This document shows, piece after piece, positions 40,801 through 60,728 of a DNA stretch of 64,000 nt (the stretch's first letter is position 1; each line of letters begins with the position of its first letter). Below the pieces are notes generated by a model. That model was not told the origin of the DNA. It saw only the letters and a list, made by a program, of their open reading frames with translations, and searched no databases. The DNA lies in assembly GCF_964204865.1 (NCBI RefSeq), contig NC_135263.1:9362001-9426000 (forward strand), given 5' to 3'. The position numbers were made by a program, and so were the translations under genes. Source of the DNA: Styela clava. Taxonomy: Eukaryota.

Positions 40801-43800
40801 TACAACTTAGGAAAACGGGAAATAACTGTCAGAATTCCACATAAATGCATTAGTTACTCTACCAAATTGAGAATATGAAATGGTTTCCATTTTTGAATGA
40901 TCAGGTGACAACATATTCTACACCGTTGAACTTGACTGGTTCCAATAGATCATCCTTCTATTAGAAAAAGTACAATCTTACTATATGGCATGTTAGAAGA
41001 AAACGCGATCGATTTCCATCTTGGTATCATATTTATCAAATAGTGGAGAAACAAACATCTATAACATATCACCAAGCTCTATTTTTCTACAATGCAAACT
41101 ATTATATAACCAAATATTTTCACCTCAATTCACAGGGCATCATGGGAGCGGCTGACCTCAGTAATTTCCATAAACGAATGAGATTAGATCACGAAGCAAA
41201 TTTTCACCAGCCTACACAGCCAGAAAGAAGAAGTATGTTTGCTTTGTGTTTGTTATTTGTTAAATTTCGTTACTAATTTGAGCATTGTTTTACGTCTGGC
41301 TAATATGTAAAGTCTGGCCCACACAATAGAGTAATTGTATGGCACGATACCACAAAAACTATACATCTATCTATCATCAGATCATACTTACGATTGATTT
41401 AGTTGCTACAAAACCATATCTAAATAAGTGCCTAAGTTAATATGTTGCTATGGAAATACCATAATTATTCTAATGCAAAAATAACTGCTTATAGTCAGAC
41501 TCTATATCCGCATACCGTGCTAATAAAGCATATTTGCATAAAGGTTAATTGAAATAACTGGTTTACATAAACAGATAAATAGTCCATTTTAGCGCTACGT
41601 AGCTTAATGTAATTCCTGATATATTTATTGTTATACTAAAAGCGAACAAAACTAACAGGAAATTACAAAGACAATAGAGATGTCGTTATTTAAGTGTTTT
41701 CTATCTAACTGTTCGAAGGAAGCCAACGTTTTTAATTGTTTGTGATTCAATGTACAATATATAAAATATTATTATAACAAAGTATTTAAATATTGAAATG
41801 ATTTTCCATCATATGAATATGCTTATAGAATTTTAAGTTGTTTTTAAATCCGTTTCCACAATTCTCTGAATACGTCAGAATTTTTTTTAAACGATTCGGT
41901 TCATACTTTCGGAAATAGAAAACGACCACATTTTCAATATGATATATGCACTTTCGAAGACATTTTTGCGCTTAATAAATATAGAGTTACCATAGTAAAA
42001 TTTACAAATTTCAAGAGATCCCTTCTTTTTTATAAAAGATAGGATTAATAAAAGCTTACCCAGCCTTGTGTTAACCATAATGAAATTACATACGTAATAG
42101 AAAGACTGGCTTACAGCAAAATCTGTAGTTATTTTTCTGAACACCGTAAGAACACAACGTTTATGAAATATAAGTAGAAGACCAGCATACACTGTTGAAA
42201 TATTTCGTAAATTTTGGCGATAAGCTAAAAACTCTTTTAAAAAGAGGCAGCATTGGTACTTGAACGCCACAGACATTGTATTAAGTTATATTTTAAGAGA
42301 CAATTTATTGACGCTTATACCTGGAAATTACGTCGGTTAACATCAGAATCGTAAATAAAAAATACATTATCCAGACTTGTTTTTCTACATACATTTATAA
42401 AAGACTATAAAATATCACTCATATTTACTAAATTTTGACGAAATAATTTTCTGGTTATCAGTGATACTACCGGATCATATGTTAGAAAATTATTAACTAT
42501 GATTTCGGAACCTCACACGAAGTTGCTGCTTTTTCGTCTTATTTTTTTTTGTATAACCTTCTCTTTTACAAATAAAACATTGAATCATTTGATTTTAGTG
42601 AGTACCAGCCCTACAAGAAGAAGTCCACCTACACCCAGAAAATATTCTTCAGGTCCAGGGGCAGATGATCTTTACACAAATGCTAACATTTACATACAGG
42701 TATAGTATTTTTGATCTTCGTATAAAAGTATTGAAAAAAACAAGAAATAACCACATTAGGAGTTTCTTATTTTATGACTAAAAGACAATATTTTGGGCTA
42801 AATCTGACATTGCATATCATTTTACAGCAAGCCATACGAAACCACTACCATCAGATTATTGCGAATGGAATTCACAATGGACTCAACCTACAGCATACTC
42901 AAATGAACGCAGCACTTGCACCCCTCATCGGAATGTCAAATCCAGCGTTGTTCAATGGTGCCATTCCGCCGAACATTCTGAGTCAATTCAACGAAGTACG
43001 CATATATTATTACTTGCATGTATTATTGAACACGGTTCACTTTTAAAAAAATCCATTTTTTTCCGAATATATTGGATGAAAAAGCTAATTTGGTCGCATT
43101 TGCCATTTTGAAAAAATATTTATCGAGAAATTAAAAAGTATCTACAGACAGAGCCCTAACTTCATTAACCTACTATATGGTAGGCAAATTCCTAACATTA
43201 AAAATAGTAAAAAAAATATGATTAACATTGATAGATGGCAAGGAATCCTTCAAATGAAGAGGCTGCAAGTTCGGGAACGAACTCGGGAGCTGATCGCGAC
43301 CAATCCTCACCAATACAGGTATTATTAGACTATATGTTATAATATATACAGGGTGTCCATAAAGTCCTGTAATAATATATTTCAACTCAAAAAAAGAAAG
43401 AGTGATTACATTTTTCGAATAAATTCCAACGTCAAAACCAATCAAAAGTTTTCATTTGGTAAAAAATATGCTTTGATTATAACAGAACAAAGATGACATG
43501 GATCATTCAGGAGGATCGCCATATCGTTCAGGAGGAAATAGAAACTCTCCATCGTACGAAGAATCAAAACTTCATCCATTTCATAAACCAAAAATTGTCG
43601 ACCGTGAAAGCTCGAATGAACGAAGGTACTTTTTTAATTTATTAACAATGTGGATTATTTGTATGGTTTTAGTCTTCAATTAATGAATAAATACGCTTTT
43701 TATTTATTGTTAAAAATTGTCGACCGTGAAAGCTCGAATGAACGAAGGTACTTTTTTAATTTATTAACAATGGGGATTATTTGTATGGTTTTAGTCTTCA

Positions 43801-46196
43801 ATTAATGAATAAATACGCTTTTTATTTATTCAAGACAATCAAGAAGTGATGTTGACCGCCATCTAGATATGTGCAAAAGAGAAGAATCGCCTCGTTCTAT
43901 TGGATCACCAATGGAACGCAGAAGTATTGGAAATATCAGTGTGTCTTCTTTCCATTCACACAAGATGCCATCTGATGCAGGTATTAAATATGATCGTTTT
44001 TAAGCTTTTGTCATAAAGATGAAATAAATCTATCATTGATTTGTACAAGTATACAAAATACCATAATTTTATGGCGTTATAAATTGTATTCAACGTTCAA
44101 CTCTTCTATAGGCCTTTCCCGCAACCAATTCTCCTAACTTGACTGTATAGATAAGACATACCAAACTGATTTGAGACCTCTCAAAATGTTTTGGTATGCT
44201 GGAAGTAATTGTCCAGAAGTCCGGCCGTACTTTTCAATTGATACATTTTTATAGGAAATACATTTACATAACGACAGATCTTCAACAGATGAAGGAAAGA
44301 AAATGTTACTCATTTAGTAAAGTTCACTGAATCATATATACCCGAGTATGATAAAGCTTAATTCTAGTCTGGGAATATAAATGTTATCTGGATTATGTTC
44401 ATACAACAACATAAATGTGGCAATCAAACGAAATTGTTTTATTTCAATGACCTCGCCCTAAACAATTGGTATTAGATTCGATGACATATTATATAAGATA
44501 AAAATCCCTTTCTAGTAAAAATCCTGTGAAATATATTTAAATTTGTTGATATATTCAACAGATAGAGATAACGACCGCCGCCAGTCCTACCCTGGTGATG
44601 ATATCGATGTCTTTGATTCTCAACACATAAACGGACAAGAATTCAACAAAACCAAAGAGGAATCCGATGCCCTTCCCGATTCGCCGGTCGAAAATGGGAG
44701 TGATTGGCGTCCAGAACATTCAGAAAATCCGATCAATGGTGCCGCCAGTATTTCTTCGATGCAGACTTTGCTGAACAACATTCAAGGATTGCTAAAAGTA
44801 GCAGCAGATAACGCAAAGCTACAAGATAAACAATTATCTTTTGAAATCGGTAAGTTACACAAATAAATTAAATTTTATTCTCAAATGCTGATGAATCGTT
44901 AGTTAGTATTCATCTAGATTTCTATACAGAGAATTTACATATTGTGTATAAATTACAGTTCTTTATTTGCTCATTTTGTATTTATTCGATATCGCTAAAT
45001 TACTATTTGACATATATTTGCAGCTGAACTGAAGAACAGAATAACCAAAGAACAAGAAATGAGAGCTGAGGTTCAAAGAAAACTCGAAGAGAGCGAAAGA
45101 ATACGAGGTAAAATTTCTAAATTACCTATTATTATGCGAACAAACCACTTATTGATTTAATTTAATATAAATAGACCCAAAACAGAATAAATAATTCTTG
45201 GTACACAAACGAAGATTTGTTTTTGAATTCTGTCTTTTGTTCTTTATCAGCCTCAATACAAAGAAAATTGACCCGTGAGAGAGAAGCCATAAAACATCTT
45301 CAAGAACAAAACTTAAACGCACAGGATAAATGGCAACGAGGAAATGGTAAGAAAAAGTATTATTACAAATTGGTAATAACATAGCTTGTAAAAAAGCAGT
45401 GCATTATCATAGATATCGTCTCGATTACTATTTTTCTTCACGATCGATAAGCAATCTCAAATTCAAAACATTTTTGTGGGGGTTACACATAAAATTTTTT
45501 AAGCTGAAGAAGATATGCATGCCTTTAATTTGACTTTATTTTAATTTCAACAGTAAAATCCCCAATGAATGATAATGATCGAACCTCATCAGTTGATGAA
45601 CAGCATTCTCCTGTTGCTCAGAGAGAATTATCGCCAGTACTTGCAGGCAGACATTTCACATCTGACAACACCAATGCTGCCAATATCCAAGCCTCAACAG
45701 CCATAACGCCGACAGGTGAGACCATTTCTGACTACTTATTTAAAAATGCATCCATCACATTTACTTTTATAACGTAGGTTTGTTGGTAATCGATTTTGCA
45801 ATGTGCTTGCATGATTGTCGAGTTTCATCATCTACTATTACAGCCCTTACATGTTGATCGTTCATTGATATAAAACTATAAAAGTAGAAAATATTTTTCT
45901 ATTTTTAATTAATAAACGTAAAATTACTATAGTCTATTTATAATTCAGAATTTTCTCCAATGTCATCATCACCATCTGTCGTATCACCAGGCAGTACAGG
46001 AGAATGCTCAGCAACATACTGGAATTCGTCTCGTTCGTTAGTTGCCGAACACACAAACACAGCAGCTGACATTACTAATAACAGCAACAGAACACCGTCT
46101 CCAAACCAACCTTCATCTCCTATAAATATGTCGACTACCGGTGAAAGAAATTGGATGCCACACGCCCTCGTCCAGTCGACTCCTTGCGCCAAGTGA
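34820..46196 (+). CDS. Dach: Dachshund homolog (Ski/Sno/Dac family transcriptional regulator), 16 coding exons, 709 aa
   Basis: Exons: 34820-34894, 38758-38895, 39180-39281, 39517-39623, 40414-40507, 41136-41232, 42599-42699, 42828-42995, 43235-43318, 43486-43625, 43835-43980, 44562-44849, 45024-45107, 45251-45346, 45554-45715, 45949-46196. All introns are GT-AG, phases are consistent, and the total is 2130 nt with no internal stop. DD1: PVYSTPHPVQSTPANNECKLVELRGVNIASFMIGGEEFICLPQVFDRFLKHLVGGLHTVYTKLKRLNIAPVVCNVEQVRVLRGLGAIQPGVNRCKLITRKDFETLYQDCTTASRPGRPPKR. DD2: SSMQTLLNNIQGLLKVAADNAKLQDKQ followed by a coiled coil. Confidence 0.96.
38758..38895 (+). CDS. Dach: Dach exon 2, start of DD1 (NERPVYSTP...ICLPQ)
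   Basis: TAG|AAT acceptor, CAG|GTATA donor; matches the Dach DD1 N-terminus. Not in the ORF track. Confidence 0.95.
39180..39281 (+). CDS. Dach: Dach exon 3 (VFDRFLKHLVGGLHTVYTKLKRLNIAPVVCNVEQ)
   Basis: Near-invariant DD1 sequence; CAG|G acceptor, |GTAAG donor. Confidence 0.97.
39517..39623 (+). CDS. Dach: Dach exon 4 (VRVLRGLGAIQPGVNRCKLITRKDFETLYQDCTTA)
   Basis: Near-invariant DD1 sequence; canonical splice sites, phase 2 end. Confidence 0.97.
40414..40507 (+). CDS. Dach: Dach exon 5 (SRPGRPPKRYPILPP...)
   Basis: Conserved SRPGRPPKR motif; TTTTTAG acceptor, GTAAGT donor. Confidence 0.95.
41136..41232 (+). CDS. Dach: Dach exon 6
   Basis: CACAG|GGC acceptor, |GTATGT donor; frame and phase consistent. 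Confidence 0.85.
42599..42699 (+). CDS. Dach: Dach exon 7
   Basis: TTTTAG|TG acceptor, CAG|GTATAG donor; phase 1 to 0; S/P/R-rich linker. Confidence 0.85.
42828..42995 (+). CDS. Dach: Dach exon 8
   Basis: TTTACAG|CAA acceptor, GAA|GTACG donor; 56 codons. Confidence 0.85.
43235..43318 (+). CDS. Dach: Dach exon 9 (MARNPSNEEAASSGTNSGADRDQSSPIQ); symmetric phase 0/0, potentially skippable
   Basis: ATAG|ATG acceptor, CAG|GTATT donor; GC-richer than the flanking introns; not in the ORF track. Confidence 0.75.
43486..43625 (+). CDS. Dach: Dach exon 10
   Basis: AACAG|AAC acceptor, AG|GTACT donor; phase 0 to 2. Confidence 0.85.
43590..43830 (+). repeat. Tandem duplication (2 x 119 bp, period 122) of the Dach exon 10 3' end plus intron 10
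   Basis: 43590-43708 and 43712-43830 are identical except for one base (ATGTGG vs ATGGGG), separated by GTT. Confidence 0.95.
43835..43980 (+). CDS. Dach: Dach exon 11
   Basis: TTCAAG|A acceptor, CAG|GTATT donor; phase 2 to 1, open frame. Confidence 0.85.
44562..44849 (+). CDS. Dach: Dach exon 12, start of DD2 (SSMQTLLNNIQGLLKVAADNA)
   Basis: Matches the DD2 consensus SSIETLLTNIQGLLKVAIDNA; canonical splice sites. Confidence 0.95.
45024..45107 (+). CDS. Dach: Dach exon 13, DD2 coiled coil (AELKNRITKEQEMRAEVQRKLEESERIR)
   Basis: TTGCAG acceptor, |GTAAA donor; resembles the DD2 segment ELKMxxxRERELRExLEKQL. Confidence 0.92.
45251..45346 (+). CDS. Dach: Dach exon 14, DD2 coiled coil (ASIQRKLTREREAIKHLQEQ)
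   Basis: ATCAG acceptor, |GTAAG donor; resembles AIxQKRLKKEKKAKRKLQE. Confidence 0.9.
45554..45715 (+). CDS. Dach: Dach exon 15
   Basis: AACAG acceptor, |GTGAG donor; phase 1 to 1. Confidence 0.85.
45949..46196 (+). CDS. Dach: Dach terminal coding exon 16
   Basis: TTCAG|AA acceptor; S/T/P-rich tail ending STPCAK-TGA. Confidence 0.85.
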
Positions 46197-51099: not shown

Positions 51100-51257
51100 A
51101 CGAACCCACGTACATTTGTACCCACGGCAATCGCACCTATGGAATTTATTTTGTTTTGCGGATATTTGAACCCATACTAACCCTAACCCATGGGTTTTAG
51201 CCCCCGTATATAGATTGAACACGCGGATATAAACATGGGTTTAAATGTACGGTCACC
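51100..51257. mobile_element. Degenerate MITE with a GGTGAC terminus and internal TAACCCTAACCC
   Basis: CGTACATTTGTACCCACGG (~51109) is an imperfect inverse of CATGGGTTTAAATGTACGGTCACC (51234-51257). Left end eroded. Confidence 0.5.
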
Positions 51258-53025
51258 GTTTTTATTACTTTCAACGTATAATTTGTCGTTTCAAATCATA
51301 AACCGCTAGAACAAAAATAATAATAAATTCATTTCATATTTCCACAAACTGTTTATTATAGGAAAAGCCAAGATAAGGTCAATTTTTAATGTAAATATAC
51401 AAGGAAATGGAGGCGGAAAACTATGTACGTTATGCTTGTTTTTATTTGCTGGTTATATGCTGTAGTAAAAACTACTTACCTTGAACGGATAACCTTTGCC
51501 ATATTTTTGTTTCAACGATCGTCCTGCAAACGAACAAGCCAAAGAGTCGGCGTTTAAGTCTTTAGTAGAGGCTTACGAACCGAACCGTTCATCTGCTTTC
51601 CTGATCTGTAGGACAAAACTGTTGTATAGGAAGGTGTATGTATTCATAGATTTTATTTCGGCAATTTAAAATTTCATGTAATCCCGGTATTCTTCGAAAA
51701 TTTCGTGTTATGTGTAGAATGAGATCACCTTGTTTTCATTAATGCAATTGGAATAATATAAATCTTTTGATAACATTGTGCTATACGGAGCATGATGTTG
51801 ATCGGGGGATATATATATATCTGAAGATATGGCCTAGATCTGCTTGCGGATTGATATATGAGTATTTAAGATTCGCATATTAATCTCGAAGTGGATGGTA
51901 TAAGCCAAAATAATTCCCGAACCAAGTATAGCAGTGTGTTAGAATTCAGACTGGAGTGGATGTGCCACCCTTTATGAAGTTAACTCATAACTTTAATGAT
52001 GACTCGCTGAAGTTGAATTACACTTGTGCCACGTGCTATTTCTATTGCAAATACAATAACCCAAAACTGTAAGAGCGCAACGTCATATTGTTTCGCTGAT
52101 TTTTTGCTCGATTTGACACGAAGCGGACCTACGGGTCGTTTTACTAAAATTTTGTTATATTATGCTAACTTTTGCCAGAAAGACAACAATTGTTAGTTAC
52201 AACTCATTCCTATATATCAGGGATGGCGAACCACTGACCCGCGGGTCACCAAGTCACCCACCGCGTTTTATTCGTGACCCGCGAAGGCACGAATAAAATA
52301 AAATGCTAACATTTTAGTGATATAATTTAAGAAAAACCGACTTTAAATTAATCTACCAATAACTAAACTATTATATTGTACCGTCATTCATGTTCAAATT
52401 GTTAATTTATCGTTCTCGGCCGGTTTGGTAATTTTAAAAACTCCTAATCTTGGACGTATGTATGCACCGCTGTGTACCTTTATTCAGCTATTGGCTCTGA
52501 CATAGTTTATGTCATAACAATGCATTTGATCTGTTCATTTCTCGCAACGTCTTGTCTCTTTCGGAAGTTCATCTGCAGACTGTTTAGGGGTTTATACGAG
52601 AACTAGATGCTACCGTACTTTGCATTTTATTAGTTTCTCACATACAATGCCGCTGAGAAAACAAAATCTTTGAGACTTGAAATGAAAACCTAGAAAATTA
52701 GAATGGAGAAGTGTGGAAGTGCCTTAACGGAGTCCTGAGGCTCCGTACGGAGCACTTTGAGAACCTAAAGTCTACGTAGTAGGATATAACAATGCGAACA
52801 ACTAAGCAACGAATGTTTCCCCGACGTTTGATCTCTTGAATTCTTCCTCTTTACACTCTACCATTGAAAAATTATTGGTACTTATTTCAAGAATGGTTTT
52901 GTGGGTTTAGGACTTATATTTAAAAAAAACTTAAAATCTTAAACTAAAATCTAACAAATAACACGCCAAAACCGACAAAACGAGGTAATATTCACAACCA
53001 TGAAAATCTGTCTGAATGACTAAAT

Positions 53026-53612
53026 CAGTGGTCGGCAACCACCGCCGCGGCCCATCGCCGTTCCGCGGAAAGGTGACGAAAAAGACGGACAATTTTCCTG
53101 ATAACATCTTTATTTGATTGAAATTTTAAACAATAATGAGTTGAAAAGAGTCTTTGCGATTTAAAGGGTAGCTACTTTGGAAATCTTTTGGGCAATACTG
53201 CTATCTGAATACCCCGGCATTGCGAAAAAAAGCTATTACAGGCATTTTTACATTTATGTCAGATCGGGTTTTCAAAATTGACAACTACAAAATCGCGGAA
53301 GGCTAAAAGTAAGAAACACGTTACTTGAATAACATCACTTTTATTTTTAAATTTAATATCAACCTAAATTTAAAACGTTTATTGTTACGTACGCACTTAT
53401 GCTGATTGGCCAATGTTACGGCAGTAAATAAGGAAGTCTAAACTCGGGGGAGATTCCATAAATATAATTAGGGTTTTATATAATTGTTATAGCTAAATTC
53501 GCTACACAGACGCGATGCTCATATTTATGGAAAATTTAAACTGTTTCGCGACCCAGAGCGGAGGGCTTCGCGACCCAAATTTGGGTCGCGACCCCGTAGT
53601 TGCGGACCCCTG
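53026..53612 (+). mobile_element. Buster-type hAT fragment(s) with a decayed transposase C-terminus
   Basis: Left end CAGTGGTCGGCAACC and right end GTTGCGGACCCCTG (12/14 complementary) with GGGTCGCGACCC subterminal motifs. 53114-53300 reads LIEILNNNELKRVF..TLEIFWAILLSEYPGIAKK/AI../HLCQIGFSKLTTTKSR across a stop and frameshifts. Flanking 8-mers differ (GACTAAAT vs CCGTACGG). Confidence 0.65.
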
Positions 53613-54588
53613 CCGTACGGTACCTCACCAGTACTGCAGTACCTGTTGCTGTATGTAGGCCTGCTATTCGATCGTGGAACGGTTCTTCTCTGGCATATAA
53701 AAACTCAATTCAATTTGCTCTTATCAAAATTAACAAATACAGTTGTAACCAATGAAAATTTCCGGGCAATTGGTCCAGTAATCAAAGAGAAAAGCCACTT
53801 TTCAGGTTTTTCACTAGGTGTCCAAAAGTGTCAAAGATCAACAACAACATAATATTGAAACAATCGCTATGTCCACTAGGTGTCCGACAACAAAACGATC
53901 GCTATGTCCACTATGTGTCCAATAATATTAACCTACTGTCTAGCATTAAAACATTCAATAAATCCCCATCCCGTAGTCGCAAAACCACGAACAAACATCC
54001 CTGGTAACCCACCGGAGACCGGAGGCACTCCCACAGACACTCATGACCAGAATCCAACCAAAAACCAACCACACTGTACCGGTACCAACCACAGCACACG
54101 CCAACAGGATACCTAAGGACAGATTGACAGTGTCACAGCGACCCAGTGTTGAAAATACAGAATACCAAATATCAGTGGCGGCGCGTGGTCATTTTGACAA
54201 CCGGGGCAAGCTACTGCGGGACCAAGTCACCCCCATCTACGGGGACAGGATGAGCGCTGTAAGTTCTCCCATCATTTTATGAGTATAAAGACCATTCCAT
54301 CGGTAACAACCAATCGGCAAAAGCGACAATTTTTAACGATAAGAAAGTGTCTTTAAAACCGGTCCAAGTCAAGGGATTAATAAATATAGACATAGTTTAT
54401 TTTGAAACCTCTTTCAAAAGGAAAGGCAATATTTACCCAGATAAATACAATGACATATTAACAGAAACTTCGGGAAAGCAGACAAAACCTGAAATAAGGT
54501 TTAAAACGTTACTATGAAGGAAGGAAAGTTAATGCAAAGATAAGGACATGCGTCGCTCACTCATAGATATATATATGCTGCTAGACTT

Positions 54589-56232
54589 CTACTGCTTGAA
54601 CCTCGTATATGCAACACGCCGCGGTTTCTTGGAACCAAAATGCTCAATAACGCACTGATTAAAGTCATGCATCCCAGAAATAACGTCTCTGTGAATGGAT
54701 AAAACAGCCAAGGAATTTAATCTATCTTGCTTCATTGTGTTTCTGAGATACGTTTTAATACGCTTCAGCGTGCTGAATGTTCGCTCTGCGTCGGCGGAAG
54801 AAATAGGCGTCGTCAAAATGATGTCCAGAAATTTTGCAGACGCCGCAAAGGTAGTTACTAGAGTGTTATCTATGAGGAACCCATAGAGCGCGCAAGTTGA
54901 TGTGATGTTCAAAAAAGTTTGATTGGTGTATATACATCGCAATTCATTTTCCAATTTACCCACGTTCATCATGGGGTAAAATTTGGAGACAGTAGCCAAC
55001 AAATGGATGGGAAATTGACGTGCAAATTTTGAAAAATTTTTGGGGTTCATCAAAGAGAGCGCGGCAAGGTGTTCAGTGCGCAGACGATCGCCTATTTGAT
55101 TCACCAGAATGTCACAGCATTCCTTTGCAGACAAAATCAAACGCTGCGTTGTTTGCCCGCGGCGTAAAGAGGCACTCCATGTGTCGTTGTATTTTATTGT
55201 TTCCCGGATACGAGATACAGCATCGCAAAAATCTGAAATACACGACTGCACAGACGCTCCATCCATTAGCCTTGACTGCAATGCGCCGTATAATACATCC
55301 ACGTGATAGAATATTGTGGAGAAAAAAGCGAGAAAAAATGAAAACTCACCATCTTCTAGCAGACGCTTTAGACCTGCCGCCTCCCTCACAGAGCGTTCGT
55401 CCCAAACCGGAGAGCTCTGAATGCCATTGAAACACTCAATGAGCTCAGACCTAATTTCGGACACGCCCTGCACCACGCGTGATTGGAAGTTCCAACGTGT
55501 TGGTGCACAAGCTGGGAGACGGCGGCTACATACCTGGCGAAGGAGGTCAGAGCGCTTCGGCAAAACGGAAAAAAATGAAGAAGACCCCGAAACATTTGCA
55601 AAAAATATACGGACGAGAGGGGTATCAAGACACCTATTTTTAATAACGAGGTTAAATTGGTGTGCATAACAATGTAAAAAATGCGCATGAGGAAAATCTT
55701 CTTTTATATAAACTTGAACACCATGTTTCGACCCACTCATGACTGCCGCGCCGTCATAAGTTTGAGCTATCAATTTTGACTTCGCGTTGTAAGGCTGTAA
55801 CACTTCTTTCAGTACAGCCGATATCCCGCAAGCCGTGCGATCAACGATTGGTACAAAGCTGTGAAATCTCTCGGTAGGTTTACCATCTTTCACAAACCGA
55901 AAAATCACAGCCAGTTGGAAAACGCACGTGATGTCAGTTGTCTCGTCAGACTGAATCGAAAGGAACTGGCAATTCTCAATTTCCAGAGCCAAATGTTGTA
56001 AATAAATTTTATACATTGAGTCGAGCAAATCATTTTGGATATTTTTAGATGTCCCTTTCGAAACAGTTGCGGCATCAAGATGATCTCTCAATACTGTATC
56101 TAGGGATGCGGTGTATTCCACCATATCCAAAAATACCCCTCTATTAGAAGAGCCAGCCCGTTCATCGTGCCCACGGAGGGACAGCTCGTGACAACGCGCG
56201 TCCTTCCTCCAACTGTGCTGCAATATTAACAT
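54589..56232 (-). CDS. hAT transposase core ORF, 547 aa (DUF4371-type region, DDE core, C-terminal dimerisation domain), lacking the native N-terminus
   Basis: Motifs LRGHDE, IQSDETTD, QTYDGAAVMSG, HCYAHQFNL (CxxH), TRW and SSADAERTFSTLKRIKTYLRNTMKQDRL. Confidence 0.9.
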   Translation of the reverse strand: MLILQHSWRKDARCHELSLRGHDERAGSSNRGVFLDMVEYTASLDTVLRDHLDAATVSKGTSKNIQNDLLDSMYKIYLQHLALEIENCQFLSIQSDETTDITCVFQLAVIFRFVKDGKPTERFHSFVPIVDRTACGISAVLKEVLQPYNAKSKLIAQTYDGAAVMSGSKHGVQVYIKEDFPHAHFLHCYAHQFNLVIKNRCLDTPLVRIFFANVSGSSSFFSVLPKRSDLLRQVCSRRLPACAPTRWNFQSRVVQGVSEIRSELIECFNGIQSSPVWDERSVREAAGLKRLLEDGEFSFFLAFFSTIFYHVDVLYGALQSRLMDGASVQSCISDFCDAVSRIRETIKYNDTWSASLRRGQTTQRLILSAKECCDILVNQIGDRLRTEHLAALSLMNPKNFSKFARQFPIHLLATVSKFYPMMNVGKLENELRCIYTNQTFLNITSTCALYGFLIDNTLVTTFAASAKFLDIILTTPISSADAERTFSTLKRIKTYLRNTMKQDRLNSLAVLSIHRDVISGMHDFNQCVIEHFGSKKPRRVAYTRFKQ

Positions 56233-56597
56233 TTCCGAATGTTCGGTATTTTACTGCATTGTCCAGATGCTCTATAGAAGATTGATGATCCCTGGCACGC
56301 TCGGAAAGATGTTTAAGATCTCTAAAACCAAATTTACACCAACGTCAGTCACGGGCGGTAGCAAAAAGTGGGCAATAAAAACAAAAAAAGTGCATTTTTG
56401 TCCTCGCTGTAACACAACCATTCGTGTTTTTTATACCAAGTTTCTGCGCAGAATGTACGCCGACGCTTTCCTCCGTCATGGGATTGTTCCAGTGAACAAT
56501 TTTTTGGTTGATAAGGCCCAAGACGTTGTACCTCTAATTTTTGTTCCAGCGGCAGCTGCGAAAATGGAGTGCGAAGTAGTGCATCAACCTTATTCAT
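56190..56597 (-). pseudogene. Disrupted N-terminal part of the hAT transposase (TTF-type zinc finger)
   Basis: MNKVDALL...GPYQP...WYKKHEWLCYSEDKNALF, then a +1 frameshift in a T7 run (56383-56389). The corrected frame reads CFYCPLFATARD*RWCKFGFRDLKHLSERARDHQSSIEHLDN...NIAAQLEEGRALS with a TGA at 56345-56347, then changes frame at ~56190. Confidence 0.85.
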
Positions 56598-57304
56598 TAT
56601 GACGTCTAAGGCTAAGAAATGCGAAGCCGGAAAGAAGTGAGGAGCTCAAAAGAAATGTGGAAAATCGAAAGCAAATGGACTAAAGGTCTCTAACTGATTC
56701 AAATAGCGAAAAGCGACAAAAACGAAGGCGAGGAAACTATCAACTCTTCAAGCAACCAACGAACGAGAAAGAATGCGTGAATAAGTCAACACGTTGTTGT
56801 AAGAAACGTCGGCATTGTGTCGTCATAATTTCGGGGCTAGCCCCGATCGGCCCCGATGATTTAGTAAAAGAAACAGAAAACAAACGAGACAAACGCGGCG
56901 AGTGGAAGATAAAAGAGAGAATACGATATACAATGAGCAACCGGGGCAAAATCGGCGTCGCCCCGTCGACGTTCGGCGAAGGCTTTGCGAGCGAAAAATG
57001 AACCATGTCGGGAGAATATGGCTAGTGTAGACAGTCTGTCCAACCGATATTGAGGTATTTTTCGAATATTTTTTATTATACCGAAAAAACAACCGGGGCA
57101 TTGTCCCGGTTGGCCCTATTGACGCGCCGCCACTGCCAAATATGGAAAAAATATCACATGACATCATTTAACAGATAAAACAAGGGCTTTCACAAAAATA
57201 TTATTCAACCTCCAATTTTTTTTTCTAAATTTTACTGATTTATGCTTTGCTTTACACAACTGAGCCCATAAGCAAGTCTAATAGGAATTTAATCCCAAAT
57301 CAAA

Positions 57305-58921
57305 TCCTTGCTCCACTGCCCTATCTCCCTCCACTTTCCTATTCTCGATCCGCTGCCCTGTCTCCCTCGCCTCGACCAAGTGCTCCACCTCCCTACCCTC
57401 AACCCACCGCCCTATCTACCTCAAGCTTCCTATCCTCGACCCACCGTACTACCTTCCTTTCCCCCTCAACCCTTTTATCCTCGACTCATTGCCCTATCTC
57501 CTTCAACTTTTCTATCCTCGATCCACTGCGTTATCTGCCTCAAACTTCCCACCCTCGACCCACTGTGCGACCTTCCTCAACTTGCTTATCTTCGACCCAC
57601 GACGCTATACCACTCAGTACCTAACCCAACGGCGCTACAATCACGACTCGGTCGTCAGAATGAACTCTACCATCTTGCGACCAACTTCCATGTGTTATAC
57701 TGGTCAAGTATGCCAATGAGATGATTTAATCGTACGTCGACAAAACATGATTGACGGCATTCGTAAATGTAGGCTGGAATCTCAATTGGTAATCAATAAC
57801 CATAATTAGTGGCTTAAAAATGTACTACTAATTAGGCTACTGATGGCATCGGGTTTGGAGTCACTGTTTTTAAAATTTTAACAGTTCATTCGATATCGAC
57901 ATATCTGAGTTCCTTTTCAGAAACTCATTTAATGTCGCCTGTATTTCCATGCAAGGCGAAACGACGAGAAAGTAATAAAATATTTGCACGCTTGGTCTTT
58001 TTCAACGAATGTTCTGCCATATCCTGTTCTATATACAACTTTTTTTACGTGACTGAGAAGGCTGAAAAGTCAAAAACAGTCAAAAATATAAGTCGCTCAG
58101 TGAGTGCAATCCCTTCCAAACTATTTTTAAGCCATGAAATGTTTTGTCGTAGCTAGCGTTTCCAACTGCACTTTAATTCAGCGTATAGTCCCAAAAATGA
58201 GCTTATCTTATTTGCAACTTAATGAAGTTGCAAAGGACGCAGTTCGTACGTAATCTTTTACTATAAAATGTTGAAGAAAAATACTTTATACGGACCAGAG
58301 CACTATTGCTTACTTCGGATCAGCATCATATTGTCACAAGACTCACGACATAGCCAATTATTAAGGGCATAAAACGGCTTTGTTAAATTTAGAAAACTGT
58401 CATTCGCAACAAGAGACCATCAGTAGCCCAATTAGTAACACATTTTTAAACTGCCAATTATGGTTATTGTTTACCATTTGAGATTCCAGCCTACATATAC
58501 AAATGCCGTCAATCATGTTTTGTCCCCCTACGATTGAATCTTCTCATTGGCATACACGACCAGTATAACCCATGGAAGTTGGTCGCAAGATGGTTAAGTT
58601 CAGTGTGGCGATCGGGTCGTGAATAAAGCGCCGTTAGGTCAGGTACTGAATAGTATGGCAGCGTAGGTCAAAAATAGGTAAGTTGTGGCAGATAGTGCGG
58701 TGGGTCGAGGATAGGTAAGTTGAGGAAGGTAGGGCAGTAGGTCGAGAAGAGAAAGGTTAAGAAAGATAGAGCGGTGGTTCGAGGATGCGGAAGTTGGGGA
58801 GATAGGTCAGTGGGTCGAGAATGGGAAAGCTGGGTAGATAGGGCAGTGGGTCGAGGATAGGGAGATAGCGTAGTGGGTCGAAAATAGGGAGGTTGGGGGA
58901 GATAGGGCATTGGGTCGAGGA
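57305..58921. repeat. Long imperfect inverted repeat (foldback-like): arms 57305-57846 and 58417-58921, 570-bp spacer, outer halves made of ~37-bp tandem modules
   Basis: 57600-57846 aligns with the reverse complement of 58417-58665, e.g. ACCATCTTGCGACCAACTTCCATG and GACAAAACATGATTGACGGCATT. About 8 TCCTCGACCCAC..CTATCT modules per arm. Confidence 0.88.
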
Positions 58922-59419
58922 CAGTTTTCAAGTAAACGAATAGCTCGCGGAGGCCCTAAGCGCCTTTAATGTGGTTGAAAGCTGATCGAAAAATATCACT
59001 ATTAGAGTGGAATTTTCTCCAAACTTTTTGTAACCCCAAAATAATTTGCCGCATCATCATAAACGTAATTCCTATGCGTGTTTTCGTACTCTAATTTCAT
59101 AAAATCGAGTGCCATAAAAGGTCCCTGATAGAAGTGCTGCATAAGTGAAGCCCAAAACTACACCAACACCGATAGAAGCTTATCAGACTTGTTTCAGTTT
59201 CTTATAGATACAAACATTGATTAAATATCTGTGACCCACTCTCCTCTCTTCCTCGAAAAAAATATAATTTTTGACCCATTCATTGAAAAAGGTTCGCCAT
59301 CCCTGCTATATATCATACATTCCTAATTATACAACATTTCGTTGGTCGACATTTTGTTTAACTGTCACATCAAACAACAACATTACAACAGAGCAGTTTA
59401 GCCATATTCTGGCACATTC

Positions 59420-59529
59420 GGACCTCCGGAAGTATGTGCACCAAGATGGCGCACAACCTGAACATAGTAGTTGTACCAGGTTAGGGTTCAGATTGTGCGC
59501 CGTCTTGGTGCACATACTTCGGGAGCGCC
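59420..59529. mobile_element. Second copy of the 110-bp palindromic MITE
   Basis: GAAGTATGTGCACCAAGATGGCGCACAACCTGAAC...GTTCAGATTGTGCGCCGTCTTGGTGCACATACTTC is clearly homologous to 22423-22532. No TSD seen. Confidence 0.8.
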
Positions 59530-60387
59530 CGGACGACTGCGTTGTCGTCATAGTCATATGCGAGGATATTGCGGTTTTCCTTGATCACTGTGTTGTCTCT
59601 GGCTAACGCAACTCAGACTTTTGGCTCCGGATTGTAAGAATCCTTTGACTCCGGAAGGTAAGAAACTTATAACTTTTATAACTTAGACGAGTTATAAAAC
59701 TGTTTTGATTTGTAAATACAACAGGTAAACGCGTCGAAAGTTGCGTTTACCGTCTATGGGACGTTTTAGCTAATCCAAATCGTTACGAAATTTATCTTGT
59801 TACCCAGAAGCCAGAGGGCAGAGACAACACAGCGGTAGTTGAAAGATAGGTAGCTTTTTTTGCTATTTGCTGAGTGCCTGAAAGCTCGATGTTTACGGTT
59901 AACGATTAGTCAGGATTTCATGTCCTACCGAGGCGAGGAACACAAATTTGGTGGTTCGCCAATTAGAGTCAATCCGTGGGAGATGATTATTTGAGTCGCA
60001 GTGACACGGAAGTGAGTTGTTTTTTGTCCCGGAGTGGAGTTATGAGTCGTTTGGTTATTATGTTGTTCTTCATCGTGTTATTTTTCTTCCTATATATAGT
60101 TGTGAAGAAAATCGGCTTTCTCTTTAATTACAGAACCAATTACTTCCAATTTTCAGTGGTTAAAGATTGTATTTTCCGCTAGGAGGCTATCACTTTTATT
60201 TATTTCAAACATTTTTGTGAGCTCTATGGCATTCGTTTTTTGTGTGAAATGACGTCACCAAAATATGCGCACCTTGTGGCGGTTCTGCGAACACATATCA
60301 GCCAATCTCGTTCCCAGCGAACGCCGAACGATCTCGTGATTAGCGAAAGTGGGAAGTTTTTAATGGGGAACGGACTGTGGACTGTTC

Positions 60388-60728
60388 GTATTTCAATTCA
60401 CGTTGAAACTGAATCAAGAAGAGGAGATCATTGACACAGGACCTGGAAAAGCTACGAAAGTTCCTGTACTTTTACTGATACCCCGATATACGGTAGGTAC
60501 CGATAAGTTACCGCATAGGATTTTGGGAAGTTTTTCACGGGGAATGTGGTACCTGATCTAGTAATACAGAAGTGACTCGAATCACTTGGTATTTCAATTT
60601 ACGTTGAAACTGAATTATGAAGAATGGATCATCGTCGCAGGACCGGAAAAGCTAAGACATTCCCTGTACCCGTCACGATACTCAGATACAGGTACAATAA
60701 GTTACGGAACCGCATATGATTTTCGGGG
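60388..60728 (+). repeat. Diverged direct duplication, period 201 bp
   Basis: GTATTTCAATTYACGTTGAAACTGAAT...CAGGACC(T)GGAAAAGCTA...CCTGTAC...ATAAGTTAC...CCGCATA at 60388 and 60589. Confidence 0.8.

What the first reader, a model, noticed from the sequence alone, without database searches (positions are those of the whole stretch)
52218..59305. Russian-doll composite: a 7.1-kb Buster-ended unit carrying a second hAT, Buster debris and a foldback repeat
Seen: perfect 15-bp TIRs and an intact 8-bp TSD bracket 7088 bp containing Buster-type end fragments (~52728-52765, 53026, 53612), a transposase relic, a complete Tip100-like hAT with its own TSD, and an inverted repeat whose arms differ at many positions. 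Known: hATs make 8-bp TSDs and Buster elements prefer nnnTAnnn. Inference: pristine outer ends around visibly older cargo suggest a Pack-type or composite element that captured repeat-rich DNA and moved it as one unit, possibly ferrying a hAT of a different clade. The alternative is serial insertion into a small MITE.
Basis: partly seen in the sequence, partly recalled or inferred. Interest (0 to 1): 0.7.

Follow-up and report, generated by a model that had tools for sequence, protein, structure and literature searches.

The report
Transposon carrying a captured satellite unit
A small jumping DNA element holds one whole repeat unit from a tandem array on another chromosome-sized contig, likely taken up in one step at an 11-base match. 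The enlarged element sits at five unrelated sites, and the second transposon found inside only this copy likely landed there later rather than being carried around.

Summary
The structure is real, but it has three layers with a traceable history.

1. The outer ends are an ~850-bp Buster-type MITE with many plain copies.
2. Its 3.27-kb insert is not a stack of insertions. It is one circularly permuted unit of an 82-kb transposon-derived tandem array on contig C1. Both molecules were opened at a shared 11/12-bp core, with no MITE base lost. Halves of two repeats in the unit have their missing halves directly beside that array, so C1 is the source.
3. This 4.1-kb composite sits at 5 loci with unrelated flanks, 3 of them with perfect and different 8-bp TSDs, so it transposed as a unit.

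The Tip-like hAT is a late, single insertion: 0 of 42 other copies of its site carry it, and it belongs to a young family of at least 40 copies. 'Ferrying a hAT' is not supported; 'moved as one unit' is.

It works like a multicopy Pack-TIR with a satellite monomer as cargo. A DNA circle and a double template switch would give the same product. The scan noted other composite or tandem transposon structures in this genome, but not this element.

The parts
52210..52217 (+). Left 8-bp TSD CTATATAT (TA at positions 4-5)
52218..52727 (+). Left arm of MITE family A (15-bp TIR at 52218-52232)
   Evidence: plain copies join this arm directly to the right arm
52717..52727 (+). Left junction core, 11-bp MITE form AAGTGCCTTAA
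52728..53612 (+). Right part of non-autonomous Buster-type family B: split Buster subterminal motif (52728-52769, minus strand), nested Buster derivative from 53026, B right TIR ending at 53612
53026..53330 (+). Deleted derivative of a 602-aa hAT transposase element (locus L100): 5' end 90% alike, C-terminal relic 44% aa
53613..53925 (+). Right half of repeat family D, starting with B's target site CCGTACGG; the left half abuts the C1 array
53926..54172 (.). Part of an LTR whose other part and intact sister LTR lie beside the C1 array; ends in the left TSD (54165-54172) of the inner hAT
54173..57135 (-). Tip-like hAT, young family (at least 40 copies, about 98%); this copy is broken (about 80 bp missing at ~56195, frame split)
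57136..57194 (.). Right TSD CCAAATAT (57136-57143) and the end of the LTR part
57195..57291 (.). 97 bp of flank that continues the flank on the far side of the C1 LTR element; ends at the unit-forming junction shared by the array and all composites
57292..58924 (.). Foldback segment of family B: inverted arms with 36/37-bp subrepeats and a ~500-bp centre
58925..58969 (+). B sequence that natively runs on into 52728; right junction core, 12-bp B form (58958-58969)
58970..59305 (+). Right arm of MITE A (TIR at 59291-59305)
59306..59313 (+). Right 8-bp TSD CTATATAT

Best explanation
An ~850-bp Buster-type MITE holds one whole, circularly permuted 3.27-kb unit of a transposon-derived tandem array on contig C1, likely taken up as a DNA circle by a single crossover at a chance 11/12-bp match; the enlarged 4.1-kb element then likely transposed as one piece to five loci, and a young Tip-like hAT likely inserted afterwards into this copy alone. 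Shown: the permutation, the shared core with no MITE loss, the source locus, five loci with unrelated flanks, and the hAT's absence from all other copies of its site. Inferred: the order of events, and the mobilising transposase (the family of locus L171, which has the same 15-bp TIRs and is now broken). Circle versus double template switch is my judgement at about 55:40 and is not tested.
For: Plain MITE A copies join the two arms across one 11-bp core. Family B runs 57292-58969 then 52717-53612 without a break; the window has these parts in swapped order. The array has 26 such junctions, 21 of them with the 12-bp core AAGTGCCTTTAA. The composite's left junction has the MITE form of the core and its right junction the B form, as a crossover would give and a target duplication would not. 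Only 11 of 4.9 million breakpoint pairs share an 11-mer with at most one indel. Source: the unit's LTR part is the part missing from the LTR next to the array, and it is 91% identical to the intact sister LTR. Array units read ATAA after the LTR end, matching the far flank, and the two flanks align as one sequence. The two halves of repeat D are about 100 bp apart in intact D copies. The unit-forming junction is shared by 35 array positions and 6 composite positions. Tree: composites form one clade (99/95); composites plus array form one clade within B (96/91). The left junction occurs at 5 loci, control 0. TSDs CTATATAT, ATATAGTA and TACTATAG are perfect; flanks are unrelated. The hAT site is empty in 37 array positions and 4 composite positions plus one more by alignment. 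L171 has the same TIR and a perfect TSD TTATATAC.
Against: Sequence alone cannot separate a circle from a double template switch. Array monophyly is not rejected (AU p 0.26), so the tree does not show composites nested inside the array; the direction rests on flank continuity. The upstream edge of the array lacks B's left part, so a later deletion must be assumed. One of the five loci has an imperfect TSD (6/8) and one has lost its left end. MITE A resembles L171 only in the TIR and the 3' end (68-80%). DNA searches scored only the 40 best candidates, so those counts are lower bounds.
Confidence: 0.75

Rival explanations
1. Same source and same later history, but the unit was copied in by gap repair: a break in the MITE switched template to the C1 array at the core, copied one unit, and returned at the next unit's core (gap filling or FoSTeST, as in Pack-TIRs).
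For: It gives the identical product. Microhomology-guided template switching is the published model for Pack-TIRs (PMC8277862, passages). Foldback DNA is break-prone (general knowledge).
Against: It needs two switches at the same core with no MITE loss, whereas one crossover suffices for a circle. Published gaps have a median of 4.6% of element size and a median microhomology of 2 bp. This is parsimony only, not a test.
Confidence: 0.35
2. The composite came first, and the C1 array arose from a circle looped out of it between the two cores.
For: The tree leaves composites at the base of the array clade. The array starts (53238) and ends (53141) close together in unit coordinates, as a concatemer would.
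Against: The missing halves of the LTR and of repeat D lie beside the array, not beside any composite. There are no MITE A arms within the fetched 13 kb and 15 kb of array flank. The array core has T at position 4 where all composite right junctions have C.
Confidence: 0.07
3. Serial insertion of separate elements into a resident MITE at this locus, with nothing moving as a unit.
For: True for the inner hAT, which has its own TSD and empty sites elsewhere.
Against: B is permuted, has no left end and has no TSD pair here. The same cargo occurs at 5 loci with unrelated flanks.
Confidence: 0.02
4. The 7.1-kb unit moved with the Tip-like hAT on board, ferrying a hAT of another clade.
For: The outer TIRs and TSD are intact, so such a move is not physically excluded.
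Against: 0 of 42 other copies of the site are filled. The hAT is about 2% from its family while the nearest composite sister is 3-8% away. The hAT family moves by itself. This copy is broken.
Confidence: 0.04

Closest known systems
Multicopy Pack-TIRs of animals, e.g. Pack-hAT-N8_XT and Ssk-FB4 (PMC8277862; passages read)
   Same: A non-autonomous TIR element with internal captured DNA, microhomology at the breakpoints, a distant parent locus, and later transposition shown by distinct TSDs. Multicopy cases were rare in that survey (4, 1.4%).
   Different: The cargo here is wholly transposon-derived, so it falls outside the paper's definition (non-TE sequence). It is 3.27 kb and is one permuted repeat unit. 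Both breakpoints use the same 11/12-bp core and no element sequence is lost.
Rsp-like satellite insertions into 1.688 arrays in Drosophila (PMC7403614; passages read)
   Same: Microhomology-guided insertion of satellite DNA into another repeat. First and last parts together make a complete monomer, which the paper reads as possible eccDNA reintegration while leaving gene conversion open.
   Different: The host here is a mobile MITE, which then carried the unit to new contigs by transposition. The monomer is 3.3 kb and its birthplace can be traced.
TE-derived satellites and MITEs holding satellite monomers (Tetris, miDNA4; as reviewed in PMC12628747; passages read; primary papers not read)
   Same: [quoted passage not shown]
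   Different: Here the plain MITE, the donor array, the exact crossover core and the dispersed copies all survive in one genome.
Buster-family MITEs such as Mar (PMC3517528; passages read)
   Same: Short TIRs, 8-bp TSD with consensus nnnTAnnn, no coding capacity, sub-kilobase size.
   Different: A five-copy subfamily is enlarged to 4.1 kb by the captured unit.

Membership tests
hAT, Buster family (outer MITE A) | 8-bp TSD with consensus nnnTAnnn | tested here: met
   Of 13 plain-copy rows, 9 have a matched TSD (7/8 or 8/8), all 9 with TA at positions 4-5 (3 of these rows are tandem copies of one site); 4 rows are unmatched. All 5 composite right flanks have TA at 4-5. Consensus from PMC3517528.
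hAT, Buster family (outer MITE A) | Short TIRs shared with a transposase-coding element | tested here: met
   L171 has an identical 15-bp TIR at both ends, TSD TTATATAC and a broken transposase; 1 of 50 transposase loci screened.
hAT, Buster family (outer MITE A) | Partner transposase groups with reference Buster proteins in a tree | not tested
   No reference Buster sequence was fetched. The L171 frame is 27% identical over 389 aa to L100. The Buster label for these two proteins rests on TSDs and recalled likeness.
hAT, Tip family (inner element) | 8-bp TSD, short TIRs, DUF4371 plus hAT dimerisation domain as in BuT2 | tested here: met
   BuT2 domains in PMC3942097. The window and 5 of 8 fetched copies have matched TSDs; 1 of these 6 has central TA.
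hAT, Tip family (inner element) | Transposase falls in the Tip clade of a hAT phylogeny | not tested
   No tree with references was built. It is far from L100 (23% over 115 aa), so a different clade is shown; the name Tip is a lead.
Pack-TIR (Tan et al. 2021) | Internal sequence is non-TE host DNA | tested here: not met
   All cargo maps to repeat families B, D and an LTR, apart from 97 bp of flank that is itself repeated.
Pack-TIR (Tan et al. 2021) | TIR element on both sides with an identifiable parental copy | tested here: met
Pack-TIR (Tan et al. 2021) | Microhomology at breakpoints; distinct TSDs in multicopy cases | tested here: met
eccDNA reintegration product | The two ends of the insert together rebuild one complete monomer | tested here: met
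eccDNA reintegration product | Free circles of the unit exist | not testable with these tools
   In genomic reads the circle junction is identical to the array junction.
piggyBac-type TTAA insertion (considered for the cargo) | TIRs at the cargo ends | tested here: not met
   The junction overlap ends in TTAA, but the cargo ends are the two halves of a continuous family-B sequence, not TIRs.

The most novel reading that the evidence does not exclude
A full loop preserved in one genome: nested transposons became a satellite array, the array shed a one-unit DNA circle, the circle integrated into a MITE by a single crossover at an 11-bp chance match, and a Buster transposase then scattered the satellite unit to other contigs, where one copy began to duplicate in tandem again (C1:26.08 Mb). 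This would be direct sequence evidence that eccDNA and cut-and-paste elements act in series to spread satellites.
Probability: 0.45. Interest if true: 0.58.

Novelty: new variant of a known kind. Interest (0 to 1): 0.42.

Why it matters
How satellite DNA reaches new chromosomes is an open question. Transposon carriage and eccDNA reintegration are both proposed, mostly from associations (PMC7403614, PMC12628747). Here the empty carrier, the donor array, the crossover site to the base and the dispersed copies are all present, so the route can be read step by step. It also adds a five-copy case to the few multicopy cargo-carrying TIR elements reported in animals, of a type that Pack-TIR screens exclude by definition. 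No gene or host function is involved, and each step has a precedent, which limits the score.

Tried and rejected
Pfam scan of the Buster relic in 6 frames: no hit; it was identified through the genome's own transposase instead. Pfam did not recognise that 602-aa protein as hAT either (weak Transposase_mut hit only).

The three C16 right ends were dropped as independent insertions: they share at least 4.7 kb of flank with C1:10.22 Mb at 96-99%. The second right end at C1:26.08 Mb is a partial tandem duplicate.

A TSD reading of the 11-bp repeat was rejected because the right copy has B's form and is native to B. The foldback as an independently mobile element: of 12 further loci picked by its centre, 7 are in B context and 5 are foldback-only tandem arrays; no own TSD was seen.

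Tree on the 298-column LTR part: composites form one group at only 90/79. The AU test did not reject array monophyly.

Reads on 51200-57290: the hAT-free joint exists as DNA, but paralogues explain it. Contigs of two samples of one study reach only 23 bases into the left TIR, and the one run of another study barely covers the unique flank. Whether an empty CTATATAT site exists in other individuals is left open.

Literature: six searches listed no report of a permuted satellite unit inside a transposing MITE. The library lacks most subscription papers, and I opened no supplements. One search gave listings only and nothing from it was used.
Full report
Observation. The unit is as described: 7088 bp between identical 15-bp TIRs with TSD CTATATAT. 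Inside lie a hAT with its own TSD and with DUF4371 and dimerisation domains, Buster-type end fragments, a transposase relic and an inverted repeat of 402 nt at 80%. The window is G000:C18:9362001-9426000. Earlier scan notes call the genome a sea squirt; I did not test that.

Layer 1, the carrier. Each outer end gave 40 scored matches out of 626 and 873 first-look candidates. Fetched plain copies are mostly 770-860 bp and join window 52218-52727 directly to 58970-59305. Of 13 plain-copy rows, 9 have a matched 8-bp TSD, all with central TA, the Buster consensus given in PMC3517528. Among 50 transposase loci screened, one (L171) has the same 15-bp TIRs, a perfect TSD and a broken transposase. Only one other long remnant of it was found. 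It is the likely former partner (inference).

Layer 2, the cargo. Without the inner hAT the insert is 3271 bp. Most of it belongs to a second non-autonomous family, B, of 3.6-6.7 kb, with TSDs of the same type. In B the order is foldback (57292-58969) then 52717-53612, continuous across a Buster-like subterminal motif. The window has the two parts swapped, with about 710 bp of spacer between them, so the insert is a circular permutation. The same permuted unit forms an 82-kb head-to-tail array at C1:12.924-13.006 Mb with 26 junctions. The junction that closes the unit is shared by 35 array positions and 6 composite positions and differs from native B.

The crossover. Plain MITE copies carry the core AAGTGCCTTAA or a one-letter variant. 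Of 26 array junctions, 21 read AAGTGCCTTTAA. The composite has the MITE form on the left and the B form, with one derived change, on the right, and no MITE base is missing. A target duplication would give the MITE form twice. Only 11 of 4.9 million breakpoint pairs between a plain MITE and a unit share such a match. The breakpoints were therefore guided by the match, but such matches do arise by chance, so this is not a dedicated site.

The source. Directly upstream of the array lies an LTR retroelement with an aspartyl protease remnant. One LTR is whole; the other stops after about 320 bases. The spacer's 53926-54172 and 57144-57194 is the missing part, 91% identical to the whole LTR. Array units read ATAA after it, matching the far flank, and the two flanks align as one sequence. 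Likewise, the repeat D half that abuts the array and the spacer's 53613-53743 lie about 100 bp apart in intact D copies, with B's target CCGTACGG at the start of the right half. The unit was therefore born at C1 (inference from two independent continuities). In a 44-row tree of the foldback centre, the 5 composite rows form a clade (99/95), and composites plus 22 array rows form a clade within 17 B rows (96/91). Array monophyly is not rejected (p 0.26), so uptake probably happened early in the array's history. Against this reading, B's left part is gone from the array's edge.

Movement as a unit. The left junction occurs at exactly 5 loci with up to 2 mismatches allowed, control 0: C18 (this one), C1:26.09 Mb, C1:10.22 Mb, C6:8.11 Mb and C5:8.62 Mb. 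No flank pair is similar (0 of 20). TSDs are perfect and different at three loci, 6/8 at one, and one copy has lost its left end. Lengths are 4018, 4094 and 5497 bp (the last with a further insertion) against 4117 bp here. Three C16 right ends are segmental duplicates and are not counted. Copies are 94-98% alike in the foldback centre.

Layer 3, the inner hAT. It belongs to a family of at least 40 copies at about 98%, with varied TSDs and intact 711-aa frames in 4 of 8 fetched copies. This copy is broken. Its site is empty in 37 array positions and 5 other composite positions. It is a late, ordinary insertion, with no sign of ferrying. Its domains match the Tip element BuT2 and it is remote from the Buster-type protein, but no reference tree was built.

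Mechanism. One crossover between a one-unit circle and the MITE explains the product most simply. PMC7403614 reads the same signature as possible eccDNA reintegration and keeps gene conversion open. A double template switch, the published Pack-TIR route, gives the same sequence. I put the odds at about 55:40 and cannot separate the two.

Novelty. It works like a multicopy Pack-TIR but fails that definition, since the cargo is transposon-derived. Each step has a precedent. Six searches found no report of the steps chained like this, within a partial library. All five papers cited were read as passages only. Verdict: new variant of a known kind, interest 0.42.

Noticed in passing
G000:C4:24.732-24.771 Mb (L103-L105, L043): A second tandem array from family B, with a unit of about 3.2 kb, a different spacer and a different breakpoint (57631). 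B seeds satellites repeatedly.
   Followed up: partly
G000:C2:25.05-25.23 Mb, C19:7.33 and 8.48 Mb, C5:16.53 Mb (L112-L114, L118-L120): Head-to-tail arrays of the foldback alone, unit about 1.6-1.7 kb, so a palindromic monomer repeated in tandem.
   Followed up: partly
L021 (G000:C1:26.082-26.090 Mb): A full composite followed by a partial tandem duplicate with the same right flank.
   Followed up: partly
L026-L028, L079-L080 (C16:2.19-2.33 Mb): Tandem segmental duplicates of the C1:10.22 Mb region, including the composite's right end; unit about 8.9 kb.
   Followed up: partly
L035 (C13:0.51-0.79 Mb): A plain MITE A copy amplified inside a tandem repeat of about 4.1 kb, with the same TSD each time.
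   Followed up: no
L100 (C9:23.7055-23.7080 Mb) and L099, L102, L124: A young hAT family with a 602-aa open frame that Pfam does not recognise as hAT.
   Followed up: partly
window 59417-59530: Small hairpin repeat (40-nt arms, 93%) just right of the element; repeated in many fetched loci.
   Followed up: no
window 60350-60690 and 43590-43830: Local tandem duplications with periods of about 200 bp (73-82%) and 122 bp (99%).
   Followed up: no
window 1-52000: AT-rich (26-37% GC), with only 5 open frames of 120 aa or more (longest 135 aa); gene context was not worked out.
   Followed up: no
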